From: Escherichia phage E212
Sequence record: MZ043897.1
Direction: 5' to 3' (one strand)
Length of the DNA stretch: 38,252 nt
How positions within the stretch are numbered: the stretch's first letter is position 1; every line of letters begins with the position of its first letter. A model generated the notes under the pieces. That model was not told the DNA's origin and made no database searches. It saw only the letters and a list, made by a program, of their open reading frames with translations. A program made the translations under genes and the position numbers. Below are positions 25,229 through 31,250 of this stretch, in pieces.

Positions 25229-26578
25229 ATGGCTACGTGGCAACAGGGTATTAATTCTGGTGGTTTTCTGGCTGGCATCGGTACGCAAAATGAGAATGCG
25301 CCAAAGGCAAGCGACATTAACGCAACGCTTGGTCTGATCCGCGAAAACAATGAACTGGCTCGCTCAGGTGCAAATAACGTTGGTCTGACCGCGTTACGTG
25401 GTCTGGCTGGAGTTGCTGATATTTATAAGCAGGAACAGCAACAGAAAGCGATTAGTGCGTTCAATAAGGTTCATGCTGATGCATGGGCTTCTGGTGATCC
25501 ATCGGGACTATTTAAGTTTGCCCAAGAAAATCCAGCGTTTGTTGCACAGGCACAACAGGCGTTTTCCGGTCTTAATGAACAGCAACGCAACGATATGGGC
25601 GATTTAGCCATGAGGGCTAACGTCGCTCTTTCTCAGGGACCTGAAGCCTACAGTAAATTCATTACTGATAACAAGGACAGGTTAAATCGCGTGGGGGCGA
25701 ATGCTGACTGGATGATTCAGACAGGTATCCAGAATCCAGAGCAGCTATCACACATGCTGACCACTATGACGCTAGGGGCTGTTGGTCCGGATAAAATGCT
25801 GGATTATCAGGATAAGATGGTTGGTCGCCAACTTGAGAAAGGGCGATTGGATGAAAGCATCCGTCAGGCTGACATGGAGAACGCGAGAGGATGGGCAAAT
25901 ATCCAAAACGCTCAACTAGACAGGGCTCAGCGGGCACAAATGCATAATGATAACGTAGCCCTGAAGTTGCAGGAATTAGGGATGAAACAACAGGAAAGCG
26001 GAAAGATTGACCCAAAACTTGTTCGAGATCTGAATAGTGATATTAATGGGTTCTCAAAGAATTATTCTGCAATGCGCAGTGCTTCTGACAACCTACAAGC
26101 CCTTGGGAAGCGCAACACTCCAGCCGCGCAGTTGGGAATGATTTTCAACTATATGAAATCGCTGGATCCGCAATCTGTGGTACGCGAAGGTGAGCAAGTG
26201 CAGGTAAAACGCACTGATGGAATATTCGGCACACTTGGTAACTATGTTAGCCAATTATCTAACGGCAAGATGCTGAATAATGAGCAAGTCCAAGACTTAA
26301 TCAACACCTCAAAACTGATGGCAAATACTGAAGGCGAAAAGTTTAACCAGCAAATGGATGATTATCTTTCAACTTATGGAGATTCTCTCCCCAGCGGACT
26401 AACTAAGCAATTGCAATCCAGAAAAGCCAAGCTGTATGAAGATATTCAGCAGCCTGCGCAACAACAGACACAACAAGCAACATCTGGCGGTCAAACATTT
26501 CGAGAAGGTATGACCGCGAAAAATCCTAAAACTGGTCAGAAAATTATTTACAGGAACGGACAATGGCAACCAATGTAG
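25229..26578 (+). CDS. Ejection protein, P22 gp20-like
   Basis: 449-aa ORF in the gene-20 position. Confidence 0.75.
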
Positions 26579-28686
26579 GTTTACCAGAGGGATTTGTTCT
26601 GGATGAACAGCCTGATAACTCACAGCTTCCTGATGGCTTTGTGCTTGATGCCCAACCAGAACAGCAGCAATCTCCTTTGGTTTCACCAGAGGAAAATTCC
26701 AGACAGGAAAATGTTGTTAATAATGCTAACGGTTTCGACCGTTTTATGTATGGCGTTCTCAGTGGATTGATGGATGTTGGTAAAGGTGTTGGTCTATTTC
26801 AGGATATGACACCAGAAGAGCAAGCCGCAATTCAGTCTCTACAGCAGAAGTTAGCGGCAAAACCATCAACCGCACAAGATGTTGGTGAGTTCGTTGGACA
26901 AGCAGCACCATTTGTTAGTGGTGGTGGGATTATTTCTCAGGTTCCGAAAGGGGCGGCAAGGCTGGCTGCCGCCGCAGGGCTTGGTGCTGGAGAAGGGGCT
27001 ATTGTAGCCAATGGAACAAATAGCGATGTTGCTTCTGGAGCTGCTATTGGCGCTGTGGCTGGCCCTGTAGCAGAGATTGTTGGTCCAGCTCTTGGGAAGA
27101 TTGCAGGAAAAATTAAAAATAGTGCCGGAGATATTTATCGCTCATCCGTAGGGATGGGGAGTAAATCATCTAAAGCAACGTTAAAGAAAGCTGCTGGCGC
27201 AATGGACAATAAATTTATCGGCGGCCAACGAGCTATTCAAGATTTCGCCGATGAAGTTAATCCTGATTTTAACGCGATAAATGCTATTCGTGAGCTAGAA
27301 CTGGAAAATTATGCCACTCCAGGCATGATCTCCAATAATCCTGCTGTCAGGGCTCTTGATAATGCAGTGGCAAGTCTCCCTGGAACAGAGATTAGTGAGG
27401 CGCATAAGCGTTTTATTACTGAATTAGGAAGAAAAGCTGATGAAATGATAACTTCATTTGGGGGAAGCCTTGATAAGCAACTGGTTTCTGACAGGCTTGC
27501 AGATAATTTTGATAAAACCATTTCATCATTACAAAATCAGTCAGATAACATCTACAACAAAATTGCCGAAAAGGTTCCTGTAAGAGACCGGATTGAGGCA
27601 ACTAATACATTGAATTTTTTAGAGGATTTTGCTGATGATATAGGTGGAATTGATGAATTATCTCCAATAATGAAGCGGACATTGAACCGACTTGATCCAA
27701 ACACCTTGCCAACGTATGGGCGTTTAGATCTCGCTAGAAAGCAGGTTGGACAAGCTATTGGCAAAGGCTCTGGTCCATTCAAGGATGAAGAAACAGGTGT
27801 TCTTAAAAAGTTATATGCAGCCATAACAGATGACCAACAGGCTGTCGCAGAAAAATATGGCGCAGGGGAATTATGGACGCTTGGTAAGGAGTTGGTAAAA
27901 AAACGAAAATCCATTGAAGATGATGCTGTAACCGTCTTGGGTAGAAAACTTCAGCAATCAGCAATTCCAAAAGTTGAAAGTGCTGTTGTTAATATGGCAA
28001 AAGGAAACGGTGGCGACTTTAGGCAATTAATGAAGTCGATTCCAAAGGATATGCGGCAGGAAGTTGCGCTCACCTCAATGAATAAAGCATTTACCAGCTA
28101 TGCCAAATCACCTGGTCAGCAATTAGGAGTTGATGGATTTGTAAAATGGTATAACGGAATGTCACGCAATGGGGCCAATATGAAGGCTCTCCGTGATGCT
28201 ATTGGCACAGATGCATCAAAGCGCCTTGATACGATTTATCAAGCAGCTAAGGCTATGAATAGACTCAATACTGGTAAGCAGTATGCTAGTAGTCTTGTGG
28301 ATCAGCAAGTTAATAACTTTCTGAAAGAAAAGGGTAGTCTCGCAAAAATTTATGGAATAGCCTCAAAAGCTGCTGCGGCGGAAGGTATTACAAGCTTATC
28401 TGGTCTTCCTGGTGTAGGTGCAACAGGGGTGATAACGTCAGCATTGATGTCAGGGAAAACAAGTAGGATAAAGGCTGCTGATGCTCTACTGTCTTCTCCT
28501 GAGTTTAAATCAATGCTATTTCGCCTGCAAAACGCACCAGTAGACAGAGCAGAAGTGAGACGCGCAATAGAAAGGAAACTGATGCAATCTGGGGCATTTA
28601 AGAGATGGGAGAAAACCTTATCAACAGATGAAGCAAAAACCATTGCCCGCACGGGGATTATTACATGGCTCGCTAGTGACAGTTAG
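26563..28686 (+). CDS. Ejection protein, P22 gp16-like
   Basis: 707-aa ORF in the gene-16 position; N-terminus carries a tandem [11 protein letters not shown] / [11 protein letters not shown] repeat. Confidence 0.7.
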
Positions 28687-28910
28687 TCAACTTTGGTTAT
28701 TTTGCCTTCTTTTTCTTGATGAACTTTGCATCCATCATCTTTTGATAGCCAAACTAAAAACTTTAAAACCTTAAACACAAGTACGGCTACTGCAATGAAA
28801 GCACCAATTGCAATTATTGCAAGCGAAATTATTTGCATTGGTGCTTTTAATGCAGGGAAAATAGTGTAAATGATCGCGAAAACAGTAATTATGAGGAACC
28901 ATCGCTTCAC
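28683..28910 (-). CDS. Small membrane protein (75 aa, two predicted TM helices)
   Basis: GTG start with strong RBS AAGGAGG (5-nt spacer); two hydrophobic stretches (LIITVFAIIYTIF and IISLAIIAIGAFIAVAVLVF); divergent from the Panacea gene. Confidence 0.55.
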   Translation of the reverse strand: MKRWFLIITVFAIIYTIFPALKAPMQIISLAIIAIGAFIAVAVLVFKVLKFLVWLSKDDGCKVHQEKEGKITKVD

Positions 28911-29169: not shown

Positions 29170-29284
29170 GAGAAAGTGGTTGTAAGTTAGCCTCTGAAGG
29201 ATTGATGACAGCTTTGTTATGGTATTAAATGCAACTTGACACAGTTGTATACATAGCTGCGGCTATCAAGATGGAGGTATGTTT

Positions 29285-29728
29285 ATGCTCACTTGTTTTG
29301 ATGTCGCCGACTACTTCTTGGCGCATTGCGATGAAGAAAGTGGCGACATTATCTCTAACCTAAAAATTCAGAAGTTGACGTATTATGCCCAAGGGTTTTC
29401 TCTGGTTCTTCTGGGTAAACCGCTATTTAATGAGAAAATTGAAGCCTGGATGCATGGGCCAGTAGTTCCTGAATTGTATCGTAAATATAGGGACTGTGGT
29501 AACGGAGCTTTACCTGCGCCAGAAAACTTTGACGCTAAAAAATTCAGTGAAGATGAAATTGAATTGCTGGATGAGGTGTATAAAGTTTATGGTCAGTTTT
29601 CTGCCTGGAAACTGCGCAATATGACTCACGAAGAGCAGCCATGGAAAGATGCTTACATTGAGGGTGCGGTTAGCCAAGAAATCACACTTGATTCTATGAA
29701 AGGTTTTTTCAAAACGTTAATTAACTGA
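29285..29728 (+). CDS. Panacea-domain (DUF4065, GepA/SocA-like) protein; putative antitoxin or regulator
   Basis: DVADYFL...ISNLKIQKLTYYAQGFSLVLLGKPLFNEKIEAWMHGPVVPELY matches the Panacea/COG3600 signature; start at the second ATG (7 nt after GGAGG; track start is 29279). Confidence 0.7.
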   Translation: MLTCFDVADYFLAHCDEESGDIISNLKIQKLTYYAQGFSLVLLGKPLFNEKIEAWMHGPVVPELYRKYRDCGNGALPAPENFDAKKFSEDEIELLDEVYKVYGQFSAWKLRNMTHEEQPWKDAYIEGAVSQEITLDSMKGFFKTLIN

Positions 29729-29733
29729 CGTGT

Positions 29734-30156
29734 ATGTCTAGAGTTAAGGGAAGAATAAAACAGAGGGATAAAGAGAGCTCTGCTACTGTTGGCCTCTCTA
29801 TCCATCACGAATCTCATGATGTAGACAAAAGTCCGCCTGTATTTTCTCTTAGATACCTACAAAAGGGGTATTGCCTAGATTGCTGCCAAAAGCATGAAAA
29901 GGCAGCATTTGCAGATAGGCTGTTCAGGTTAAGTCAGATGTCATGGGATGAGATACGAAAATCTGATAAACACGGGCTTGGGACGGAAAAAATTGCCAGA
30001 AACGCGATAAAGGCTCCGATTCCTAAGCATGTTACTCAAGATGTGGATTTCATTGCGTTCAGATTTTGCTCTAAGGCACCTATGGTTGGTTATAAGATAG
30101 GAGCCACTTTTTATGTCTTATGGCTCGACAGGGAGTTCAAGCTATACAAGCACTAA
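29734..30156 (+). CDS. Hypothetical protein (140 aa), candidate partner or toxin of the Panacea protein
   Basis: Starts 5 nt after the Panacea stop on the same strand (likely co-translated); basic; no family recognised by eye. Confidence 0.5.
   Translation: MSRVKGRIKQRDKESSATVGLSIHHESHDVDKSPPVFSLRYLQKGYCLDCCQKHEKAAFADRLFRLSQMSWDEIRKSDKHGLGTEKIARNAIKAPIPKHVTQDVDFIAFRFCSKAPMVGYKIGATFYVLWLDREFKLYKH

Positions 30157-30208: not shown

Positions 30209-31250
<1,042 letters not shown>

What the first reader, a model, noticed from the sequence alone, without database searches (positions are those of the whole stretch)
26578..26660. Tandem peptide repeat at the N-terminus of the gp16-like ejection protein
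[11 protein letters not shown] and [11 protein letters not shown] are encoded back to back at the start of a gp16-like protein that is unusually long at 707 aa. This suggests a repeat expansion or an added N-terminal module in an injected protein.
Basis: seen in the sequence. Interest (0 to 1): 0.2.

Follow-up and report, generated by a model that had tools for sequence, protein, structure and literature searches.

The report
Docking motif pair joining phage ejection proteins
The two near-identical peptides are real, but they are the normal two-copy N-terminal motif of a widespread, undescribed class of phage DNA-ejection proteins, and the motif almost always occurs with one particular tail on the neighbouring ejection protein, which suggests a plug-and-socket joint between the two.

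Summary
The repeat is real. [11 protein letters not shown] (26581-26613) and [11 protein letters not shown] (26626-26658) are residues 7-17 and 22-32 of the 707-aa gp16-position ejection protein. They are separated by DNSQ, so they are not strictly back to back.

It is not a recent expansion. The copies share 9/11 residues but only 2/11 third-codon bases. Two copies is the norm (93 of 114 cluster representatives), and 707 aa is the family's normal length.

The first ~36 residues form one of at least five interchangeable N-terminal cassettes on P22-like gp16 proteins. Each cassette occurs only with one C-terminal tail type on the upstream protein gp20 (77 loci, no mismatch).

For this cassette the partner tail is EG.TA.NP.TG.KII[FY]R.G.W (window 26504-26575). 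The pair recurs in 73 distinct junctions from viral contigs of 33-68% GC, where the rest of both proteins is no longer alignable.

AlphaFold2 predicts the cassette as disordered and the tail as a tethered three-strand beta unit. Published P22/Sf6 gene swaps show that gp16 and gp20 must be cognate after assembly.

Best reading, inferred and not shown: the cassette docks gp16 onto the gp20 tail when the ejection channel assembles. The window element itself is ordinary. The motif pair appears undescribed.

The parts
25229..26578 (+). gp20-type ejection protein gene (449 aa)
   Evidence: PF16928 Inj_translocase at residues 12-219, E=2.7e-106. phrog_917 'released from the phage upon host infection'.
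26447..26497 (+). Predicted disordered Gln-rich linker of gp20 (residues 407-423), tethering the tail to the helical body
   Evidence: AF2 pLDDT below 50 for residues 407-423.
26504..26575 (+). gp20 C-terminal tail [24 protein letters not shown] (residues 426-449), the proposed socket
   Evidence: AF2 predicts three short strands (429-431, 438-442, 445-448) at pLDDT about 76. The tail is conserved in 73 distinct junctions next to the cassette.
26552..26555 (+). Shine-Dalgarno-like AGGA, 7 nt upstream of the gp16 start codon
   Evidence: Read directly from the sequence.
26563..26578 (+). 16-nt overlap of gp20 and gp16. The gp16 ATG is built on the conserved tail Trp codon of gp20 (CA-ATG-G).
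   Evidence: Overlaps of -9, -15 or -18 nt are typical of pair-bearing loci. 85 of 114 cassette proteins have Ala at position 2.
26563..28686 (+). gp16-position ejection protein gene (707 aa)
   Evidence: ORF. phrog_6704 matched 1-707/707 and phrog_770 'DNA transfer protein' at 2e-26. 100% identical in Escherichia phage EC.P3.
26563..26670 (+). N-terminal cassette (residues 1-36): MATNVG, copy 1, spacer, copy 2, EQQQ. Predicted disordered.
   Evidence: AF2 gives coil at pLDDT about 28 for residues 1-40. The cassette boundary is taken from homologues that carry other N-termini.
26581..26613 (+). Motif copy 1, [11 protein letters not shown] (residues 7-17)
26614..26625 (+). Spacer DNSQ (residues 18-21)
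   Evidence: Start-to-start spacing of the copies is 12-25 residues across the family, most often 14-15.
26626..26658 (+). Motif copy 2, [11 protein letters not shown] (residues 22-32)
27250..28272 (+). Confidently predicted all-helical core of gp16 (residues 230-570)
   Evidence: AF2 pLDDT mostly 83-93. No solved structural relative was found.

Best explanation
The two peptides are the two copies of a conserved short motif, LPxGFxLD. Together they make up a roughly 35-residue N-terminal cassette on the third ejection protein (the gp16 position), and the cassette is predicted to be disordered on its own.

Shown:
- The cassette is ancient and kept by selection on the protein sequence.
- It is one of at least five interchangeable N-terminal cassettes in P22-like phages.
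- Each cassette type occurs only with one type of C-terminal tail on the upstream ejection protein gp20.
- For this cassette the partner tail is about 22 residues, (E)G.TA.NP.TG.K[IM]I[FY][RK].G.W, predicted as a small three-strand beta unit on a flexible linker.
- The tail-plus-cassette pair is conserved across very diverse phages in which the rest of both proteins has diverged beyond recognition.

Inferred:
- Tail and cassette are socket and plug. After ejection, the disordered gp16 N-terminus binds the tail at the distal end of the gp20 periplasmic tube, probably by adding its two LPxGFxLD strands to the gp20 beta unit.
- This joins the inner-membrane component gp16 to the tube and sets which gp16 works with which gp20.
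- The 16-nt gene overlap additionally couples translation of the two genes.
For: 1. Protein-level selection. The copies share 9/11 residues but only 2/11 third-codon positions.
2. Modularity. The same body carries cassettes A-F, and cassette A sits on several bodies.
3. Strict pairing in P22-like loci. There are 5 tail types and 5 cassette types in 77 loci with no off-diagonal case, and each pair has several different flanking contexts. HK620 and Sf6 share FSSLWGD* with MAKAWKDV....
4. Forward scan anchored on the cassette. 28 of 30 divergent IMG/VR loci show the NP.TG...G.W tail immediately upstream. One locus (L153) lacks it and one (L156) has the GP.NG variant.
5. Reverse scan anchored on the tail. 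Nearly all loci where the tail ends a protein have a downstream gene that starts with two LPxGFxLD copies.
6. Junction census. Of 174 distinct junctions, 64 carry both tail and cassette, and 3 more were regex misses. 4 have the tail with one copy and 1 has the cassette without the tail.
7. The pair persists with gene gaps from -18 nt to +27 nt, so it does not depend on the overlap.
8. 73 pair-bearing junctions sit on 16 upstream and 20 downstream body groups that BLASTP does not link. Locus GC ranges from 33 to 68%.
9. AF2 predicts the cassette as coil at pLDDT about 28. It predicts the tail as three strands at pLDDT about 76 behind a disordered linker.
10. Experiments in PMC10883804. P22 carrying only Sf6 gene 16, or only Sf6 gene 20, gives fewer than 1e4 PFU/ml, while both together give 5e10. 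Sf6 gp16 is still packaged, so the two proteins must be cognate after assembly. P22 and Sf6 carry different tail/cassette pairs.
11. Removing the C-terminal 33 residues of P22 gp20 gives non-functional virions, yet the N-terminal 314 residues suffice for incorporation.
12. Precedent. The T7 gp16 N-terminal part stabilises the C-terminal domain of gp15 in the periplasmic tunnel (PMC8954989).
13. The hybrid P0004 has cassette B, a B-type gp20 tail and a single degenerate PPNGFALD remnant.
Against: - There is no direct evidence of contact.
- Tail and cassette are encoded next to each other, and here they overlap by 16 nt. Co-inheritance is therefore partly expected from linkage alone.
- Exceptions exist. 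L153 has the cassette without the tail. L210, L216 and L234 have the tail, extended by a Gly-rich segment, without a cassette gene downstream. Four junctions have only one clear copy.
- Tails of the YGYLP type go with three different gp16 N-termini (SLT domain, 2x NFFDQFD, 2x WEERRxQF), so pairing is not one-to-one for every type.
- The Sf6/P22 swap data do not locate the incompatibility to these segments.
- The full text of the 2026 in situ cryo-EM preprint on the P22 channel could not be read.
Confidence: 0.6

Rival explanations
1. Recent tandem duplication, or an extra module added to an otherwise standard gp16, making this protein unusually long.
For: Two similar 11-mers lie 15 residues apart at the N-terminus. 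The protein is 98 aa longer than P22 gp16.
Against: Nucleotide identity between the copies is 22/33, with 2/11 third positions conserved. All relatives have two copies and the same start. phrog_6704 has 707 positions. Lengths of 604-722 aa are normal for this gene position. Two copies is the norm in 93 of 114 representatives.
Confidence: 0.02
2. The tail and the cassette do not bind each other. Each binds the same third partner, such as a host periplasmic or inner-membrane component, peptidoglycan, or another virion or channel protein such as gp7 or gp10. They co-occur because both must match that partner.
For: Co-occurrence alone cannot separate direct from indirect coupling. SieA-escape mutations map to both gp16 and gp20, which suggests a shared interaction surface at the inner membrane.
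Against: The pair occurs in phages spanning 33-68% GC, hence very different hosts, which argues against a host-specific partner. Several orthogonal pairs coexist among phages of the same hosts, E. coli and Salmonella, that have near-identical gp7 and gp10. Sf6 gp7 works with P22 gp20 and gp16, so matching to gp7 is not type-specific.
Confidence: 0.15
3. The cassette is a virion-incorporation (capsid-targeting) signal for gp16, analogous to the N-terminal targeting peptide of T4 internal proteins. Its link to the gp20 tail is incidental.
For: It is a short, disordered N-terminal peptide. N-terminal parts of P22 gp7 and gp20 suffice for incorporation, and the 10-residue T4 IpIII N-terminus targets fusions into heads (PMC8402733).
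Against: E-proteins from Sf6, L, HK620 and CUS-3, which have different gp16 N-termini at least in Sf6 and HK620, are all packaged into P22 heads. Sf6 gp16 is packaged without its cognate gp20 yet is non-functional. A targeting signal would be expected to covary with coat or scaffold proteins, not with the last 22 residues of gp20. A 171-residue N-terminal amber fragment of P22 gp16 was not detected in particles.
Confidence: 0.1
4. Pure genetic linkage. The tail and cassette travel together only because they are adjacent and overlap, and because the overlap serves translational coupling. There is no protein-level relationship between them.
For: There is a 16-nt overlap in which the gp16 ATG is built on the gp20 Trp codon. 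Overlaps of -9, -15 or -18 nt are common.
Against: The pair persists in loci with non-overlapping genes, up to +27 nt apart. Both peptides are conserved at the amino-acid level over about 20 and about 30 residues, far beyond the overlap, while both protein bodies diverge beyond BLASTP detection. Recombination breakpoints lie on both sides of the pair but were not seen between its halves in 77 P22-like loci.
Confidence: 0.1

Closest known systems
T7 gp15 / gp16 N-terminal region in the periplasmic tunnel of the DNA ejectosome (reviewed in PMC8954989)
   Same: The N-terminal part of the third ejection protein binds and stabilises the C-terminal part of the second. The gene order (small, middle, large ejection protein) is the same, and assembly happens after ejection.
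   Different: T7 gp16-N is a folded region of about 230 residues that includes a lytic transglycosylase. Here the candidate interface is a disordered cassette of about 35 residues with two 8-residue motifs, plus a tail of about 22 residues. There is no SLT domain and no detectable sequence similarity.
P22 gp16 (609 aa) and its own gp20 tail / gp16 N-terminus pair
   Same: Same gene position and same operon. There is weak homology of the body (BLASTP 23% identity over 271 aa, E=0.028; phrog_770 at 2e-26). The logic of a type-specific pair is also the same: tail ...SYTSKSGIKFTVE* goes with [21 protein letters not shown].
   Different: P22 has a different, single-copy cassette and a different tail, and its genes overlap by 1 nt rather than 16. 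The P22 protein is 98 aa shorter, and the difference lies in the body, not the cassette.
Sf6 and HK620 gp16/gp20 (cassette MAKAWKDVIASPQYQAL with tail FSSLWGD*)
   Same: These are members of the same set of interchangeable pairs in Lederbergvirus. Experiments show that Sf6 gp16 and gp20 must be supplied together to work in P22.
   Different: Their cassette has a different sequence with a helical character, and it is not repeated.
Escherichia phage EC.P3, Salmonella phage S.Kent 1-2-1, Escherichia phage Kapi1 and Salmonella phage SEN22
   Same: These are the only GenBank phage records found with this cassette. Identity of the whole protein is 100%, 97.7% and 52% for the first three. SEN22 shares only the first 34 residues, at 80% identity, on a different body.
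   Different: They are annotated as 'hypothetical protein' or 'DNA transfer protein', with no mention of the motif.
SpaA / Cna-B prealbumin-like domains (PF17802), motif APxGYxL
   Same: A similar 7-residue string. These proteins scored in the motif search.
   Different: The string is part of a folded domain of about 90 residues, repeated with that period in Gram-positive surface proteins. It is not N-terminal and not phage-related. This is a look-alike, not a relative.
HU/IHF beta-arm motif (GRNPxTGExI)
   Same: The gp20 tail contains NPKTGQKI and gives sub-threshold hits to Bac_DNA_binding and to IHF chains. This is consistent with a beta-hairpin turn.
   Different: E-values are 0.09-1, so these are chance-level matches. 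There is no evidence of homology or of DNA binding.

Membership tests
P22-like gp16 ejection protein (third E-protein of Lederbergvirus) | Last gene of the gp14-gp7-gp20-gp16 block, upstream of the accessory region and the tailspike | tested here: met
   The gene order is gp10, gp26, gp14, gp7 (PF25688), gp20 (PF16928), this ORF, then the tailspike with a Head_binding domain.
P22-like gp16 ejection protein (third E-protein of Lederbergvirus) | Sequence homology to characterised gp16 proteins | tested here: inconclusive
   phrog_770 'DNA transfer protein' at 2e-26 over residues 106-635. BLASTP E=3e-7 to HK620 gp16 but E=0.028 to P22 gp16. The local Pfam copy gives no family even for P22 gp16 itself, so PF26808 could not be applied.
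P22-like gp16 ejection protein (third E-protein of Lederbergvirus) | Present in virions and ejected into the host before the DNA | not testable with these tools
   This needs proteomics or ejection assays.
LPxGFxLD N-terminal cassette proteins (undescribed family defined here) | At least two LPxGFxLD copies beginning within about 12 residues of the start, 12-25 residues apart | tested here: met
   The copies start at residues 7 and 22, a spacing of 15. For the family distribution.
LPxGFxLD N-terminal cassette proteins (undescribed family defined here) | The upstream gene ends with (E)G.TA.NP.TG.K[IM]I[FY][RK].G.W | tested here: met
   Window gp20 ends [24 protein letters not shown].
LPxGFxLD N-terminal cassette proteins (undescribed family defined here) | Cassette disordered in isolation and followed by a low-complexity linker | tested here: met
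   AF2 gives coil at pLDDT about 28 for residues 1-40, and [10 protein letters not shown] follows the cassette.
T7 gp16-type N-terminal domain (lytic transglycosylase plus gp15-binding region) | SLT / lysozyme-like domain at the N-terminus | tested here: not met
   No Pfam family at E<=0.01. Sf101 and some metagenomic relatives do carry an SLT domain at this position.
T7 gp16-type N-terminal domain (lytic transglycosylase plus gp15-binding region) | Binds the C-terminal domain of the middle ejection protein in the assembled tunnel | not testable with these tools
   Only covariation evidence is available.
Recent tandem DNA duplication / repeat expansion | High nucleotide identity between units, and copy number that varies among close relatives | tested here: not met
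   22/33 nt identical, with 2/11 third positions. All close relatives have two copies. The DNA repeat finder did not report the units.
SpaA / Cna-B prealbumin-like repeat | A PF17802 domain of about 90 residues surrounding the motif | tested here: not met
   No Pfam hit in the window protein. PF17802 was found only in the giant look-alike hits P0045, P0095 and P0145.
T4-type capsid-targeting sequence | An N-terminal peptide that is necessary and sufficient for packaging into proheads | not testable with these tools
   Indirect evidence argues against it: E-proteins from other phages, with different N-termini where checked, are packaged into P22 heads (PMC10883804).

The most novel reading that the evidence does not exclude
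Podophage ejectosomes may use a small set of orthogonal, exchangeable connector pairs. Each pair would be a C-terminal tail on the middle ejection protein and an N-terminal cassette on the large one, folding together by strand or helix complementation. The LPxGFxLD x2 cassette with the NPxTG..G.W tail would be the most widespread pair, and its two motif copies would let one gp16 clamp two gp20 tails, or two edges of one tail. On this reading, these connectors of about 20-35 residues, rather than the protein bodies, decide which ejection proteins are compatible. That would explain the extreme mosaicism of genes 16 and 20, and why single-gene swaps are lethal.
Probability: 0.4. Interest if true: 0.65.

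Novelty: new variant of a known kind. Interest (0 to 1): 0.45.

Why it matters
How short-tailed phages build a DNA channel across the cell envelope is still being worked out. Genetics shows that P22-type gp16 and gp20 must be a cognate pair, but not which parts decide this.

The covariation found here points to two very short, easily swapped segments as the candidate specificity determinants. It also shows that the same pair is used far beyond P22-like phages, by proteins that current annotation calls 'hypothetical'.

This gives three things:
- a directly testable hypothesis, by peptide binding, cassette or tail swaps, and complex prediction;
- a practical sequence signature for recognising the middle and large ejection-protein genes in unannotated phage genomes;
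- a rule for engineering hybrid phages: move the tail and the cassette together.

For the window itself the conclusion is modest. The repeat is a normal, conserved feature, not an anomaly.

Tried and rejected
- DNA repeat search over 26500-26800 found nothing relevant, because the units are too diverged at the DNA level.
- Sequence searches of the PDB with window gp16, P22 gp16, window gp20, the cassette profile and the tail profile gave no significant hit.
- A Foldseek search of the gp16 AF2 model against the PDB gave nothing below E=0.4.
- A word-indexed homology search with the 42-residue cassette profile returned only four short fragments, which cost one capped search.
No natural tail-plus-cassette fusion protein was found among the fetched proteins.
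- I considered whether cassette plus tail could form a split WW-like domain. Pfam scans of the tail and of chimeric strings gave no WW hit, only sub-threshold EGF_Tme5 and Bac_DNA_binding matches, so I dropped the idea.
- The genome-contig scan used only one very specific pattern and returned two loci, in Symbiopectobacterium and Providencia. Both carry the pair.
- Casjens & Thuman-Commike 2011 and Casjens & Grose 2016 are not held. For the 2026 P22 channel preprint only the abstract is readable. Phrase probes show that it mentions 'N-terminal region of gp16' and 'gp16 interacts with' once each.
- A literature search for the motif string found no relevant paper.
- I did not pursue residue-level coevolution between tail and cassette, because the variants seen (for example GPNG tails with FTLD motifs) are confounded by relatedness.
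Full report
**Observation**

The window is a P22-like (Lederbergvirus-type) prophage or phage. The gene order is gp10, gp26, gp14, gp7 (PF25688), gp20 (PF16928 at its N-terminus), then a 707-aa ORF at 26563-28686 in the gp16 position. The ORF begins [36 protein letters not shown].

The two 11-residue peptides are residues 7-17 (26581-26613) and 22-32 (26626-26658). Nine of 11 residues match. None of 200 shuffles of the protein reached 9/11.

One correction to the finding: the copies are separated by DNSQ, so the unit is 15 residues and the copies are not strictly back to back.

**Not a recent expansion and not an unusual length**

- At the DNA level the two units are 22/33 identical. Codon positions 1 and 2 match at 10/11 each, and position 3 at 2/11. 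Only 2 of the 9 conserved residues use the same codon. This is an old duplication held by selection on the peptide.
- phrog_6704 is a 707-position profile that the protein matches from end to end.
- Escherichia phage EC.P3 encodes the identical protein, and Salmonella phage S.Kent 1-2-1 one that is 97.7% identical.
- In 80 related IMG/VR loci the gp16-position protein is 604-722 aa long, most often 707 or 722. P22's 609 aa is the short extreme.
- The junction DNA is present in 139 of 5,426 complete E. coli genomes.

**The N-terminus is a swappable cassette**

Homologues with the same body ([22 protein letters not shown]...) carry different N-termini:

| Cassette | N-terminal sequence |
|---|---|
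| A | two LPxGFxLD copies (this window) |
| B | REQLMTALRNADAAGD... |
| C-like | MNVTLPNGNVITDVPD... |
| D | MAKAWKDVIASPQYQQL... |
| E | two NFFDQFD copies |
| F | two WEERRxQF copies |

Sf101 has a lytic transglycosylase domain at this position. Conversely, cassette A sits on unrelated bodies. SEN22 matches the window protein only over the first 34 residues, at 80% identity. Kapi1 is nearly identical for about 140 residues and then drops, giving 52% overall.

**Each cassette goes with one gp20 tail**

Tabulating the end of gp20 against the start of gp16 in P22-like loci gave five tail types and five cassette types in 77 loci. There was no off-diagonal case, and each pair had several different flanking contexts.

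- The A cassette goes with ...NPKTGQK[IL][10 protein letters not shown].
- P22's [16 protein letters not shown] goes with ...KSGI[KQ]FTVE*.
- REQLMTALRNADAAGD goes with ...LSDDxLxxKYLG.
- MAKAWKDV... goes with ...FSSLWGD*, including HK620 and Sf6.

More distant prophages with cassette A keep the tail (L089-L091). The hybrid P0004 has cassette B followed by one degenerate PPNGFALD remnant, and it has a B-type tail.

Pairing is not one-to-one for every type. YGYLP-type tails go with an SLT domain, with NFFDQFD, or with WEERRxQF N-termini.

**The pair extends far beyond P22-like phages**

An exhaustive profile search of 1.84 billion cluster representatives found 229 proteins at E<=1e-3. Of the 149 listed, 114 carry the tandem motif at the extreme N-terminus of otherwise diverse proteins. 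For those of at least 300 aa the median length is 608 aa and the range is 326-2258.

Copy number by the counting rule used (consecutive copies no more than 30 residues apart) is:

| Copies | Representatives |
|---|---|
| 2 | 93 |
| 3 | 15 |
| 4 | 2 |
| 7 | 1 |
| 1 | 3 |

Most of the other 35 are giant repeat proteins. The three tested are SpaA/Cna-B surface proteins with a look-alike APxGYxL string, and are unrelated.

Three scans tested the pairing outside P22-like phages:

- A cassette-anchored scan of viral contigs gave 30 divergent informative loci. In 28 of them the upstream protein ends with (E)G.TATNP.TG...G.W. One locus (L153) lacks the tail and one (L156) has the GP.NG variant.
- A tail-anchored scan gave the reverse result. 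Where the tail ends a protein, the next gene almost always begins with two LPxGFxLD copies.
- A census of 174 distinct junctions counted 64 with both tail and cassette, plus 3 regex misses. Four have the tail with one copy, one has the cassette without the tail, and the remaining hundred or so have neither.

Gene spacing ranges from an 18-nt overlap to a 27-nt gap, so the association is not an artefact of the overlap. With the tail and cassette removed, the 73 pair-bearing junctions fall into 16 upstream and 20 downstream groups with no BLASTP link between groups. Locus GC spans 33-68%.

The upstream proteins mostly have no Pfam family. A few give weak PHROG hits to ejection proteins or carry an SLT domain.

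**Structure predictions**

- AF2 on gp16 with 25 homologues gives coil at pLDDT about 28 for residues 1-40, low confidence up to residue 229, and a confident all-helical core at residues 230-570. That model has no solved structural relative.
- AF2 on gp20 gives a long helical body and a disordered linker at residues 407-423. The last 20 residues form three short strands (429-431, 438-442, 445-448) at pLDDT about 76.
- Neither motif occurs in any PDB chain.
- The tail's NPxTGxxI resembles the HU/IHF beta-arm, but only at chance level.

**Published experiments that bear on function**

- In P22, the three ejection proteins enter procapsids independently. The N-terminal 314 residues of gp20 suffice for its incorporation (PMC8402733).
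- Removing the last 33 residues of gp20 gives non-functional virions (PMC10883804).
- P22 hybrids with only Sf6 gene 16, or only Sf6 gene 20, are dead (fewer than 1e4 PFU/ml). With both genes they give 5e10. Sf6 gp16 is still packaged. The authors conclude that gp16 and gp20 must interact in the virion or during delivery. P22 and Sf6 carry different tail/cassette pairs.
- In T7 the N-terminal part of gp16 stabilises the C-terminal domain of gp15 in the periplasmic tunnel (PMC8954989).
- A 2026 preprint reports sequential assembly of gp10, gp7*, gp20 and gp16 into the P22 channel. Only its abstract was readable.

**Interpretation**

Shown:
- The repeat is a conserved two-copy short motif in a disordered N-terminal cassette.
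- The cassette is modular.
- It is co-inherited with a specific gp20 tail across very wide divergence.

Inferred, at confidence about 0.6: the cassette is the plug and the tail the socket that dock gp16 onto the distal end of the gp20 tube after ejection, probably by beta-strand addition. The 16-nt overlap places the gp16 ATG on the conserved tail Trp codon, preceded by an AGGA Shine-Dalgarno sequence. This adds translational coupling.

Rivals:
- Tail and cassette both bind a common third partner.
- The cassette is a packaging signal.
- The association is pure linkage.
- The repeat is a recent expansion. The data exclude this.

**Novelty**

No Pfam family covers either segment. No held paper contains the motif. 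RefSeq calls the protein 'hypothetical'. The general idea of contact between the middle and large ejection proteins is known. This particular motif pair and its strict covariation appear undescribed.

For the window itself the feature is ordinary. As a family-level pattern it is moderately interesting and directly testable.

Noticed in passing
window 26552-26578: gp20 and gp16 overlap by 16 nt, and the gp16 ATG (26563) is formed on the conserved tail Trp codon of gp20 (CA-ATG-G). An AGGA lies 7 nt upstream. The same arrangement, with overlaps of 9, 15 or 18 nt, recurs in most pair-bearing loci. It explains why 85 of 114 cassette proteins have Ala as residue 2.
   Followed up: partly
window 28683-28910 (-): A 75-aa hydrophobic protein lies directly downstream of gp16 on the opposite strand. 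This is the position where P22 has sieA and HK620 has hkcB. It has no Pfam family. It could be a superinfection-exclusion or other membrane accessory gene.
   Followed up: no
window 29279-30156 (+): A SocA/Panacea antitoxin-domain protein (PF13274, 2e-24) is followed 5 nt later by a 140-aa protein with no Pfam family. This looks like a toxin-antitoxin or defence pair in the accessory region between gp16 and the tailspike.
   Followed up: no
window 30209-31014: A ClpP-like protease gene lies on the minus strand (PF00574, 4e-12). It abuts and slightly overlaps a C-terminal fragment of an IS21 IstB protein (PF01695, 1e-34), which is a remnant of an insertion sequence.
   Followed up: no
P22-like loci L001-L092, L251, L252: At least four further matched pairs of gp20 tail and gp16 N-terminus exist: KSGIxFTVE* with [16 protein letters not shown]; LSDDxLxxKYLG with REQLMTALRNADAAGD; FSSLWGD* with MAKAWKDVIASPQYQ; and R[YF]NPxTGxxE* with MPIEVELPNGDIAEFPD. 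The last recurs in high-GC metagenomic contigs L215 and L239.
   Followed up: partly
L210, L216, L234 (IMG/VR contigs): Here the A-type tail is followed by a Gly-rich C-terminal extension (...GGQWQPIGGAVSNGGSNFQ*). Where a downstream gene was found (L210, L234; none in L216), it is not a cassette protein; in L210 it looks peptidase-like (SGFRTQAHQNALKAQG). These loci are exceptions to the pairing rule.
   Followed up: no
L085 (Erwinia tracheiphila prophage), L086 (Providencia), L003 (Sf101): gp20 tails of the ...YGYLP type go with three different gp16 N-termini. The Erwinia gp20 ends ...KYGYLPEGFE*, so an LPEGF string sits on the gp20 side, while its gp16 starts with two NFFDQFD repeats.
   Followed up: no
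P0004 / L087: This is a natural recombinant. It has cassette B followed by a single degenerate motif copy (PPNGFALDSQP) and then the window-type body, with a B-type gp20 tail. The breakpoint seems to fall between the two motif copies, and the orphan copy seems to be decaying.
   Followed up: partly
proteins P0191, P0208, P0211 and others: Many NCBI records name gp20 homologues 'acyltransferase'. This is probably a propagated annotation error, since they carry PF16928 (injectosome translocase).
   Followed up: no
P0111, P0177: In some proteins a lytic transglycosylase domain comes before the two LPEGFVL[DE] copies in the same polypeptide. The cassette therefore need not be at the extreme N-terminus.
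   Followed up: no
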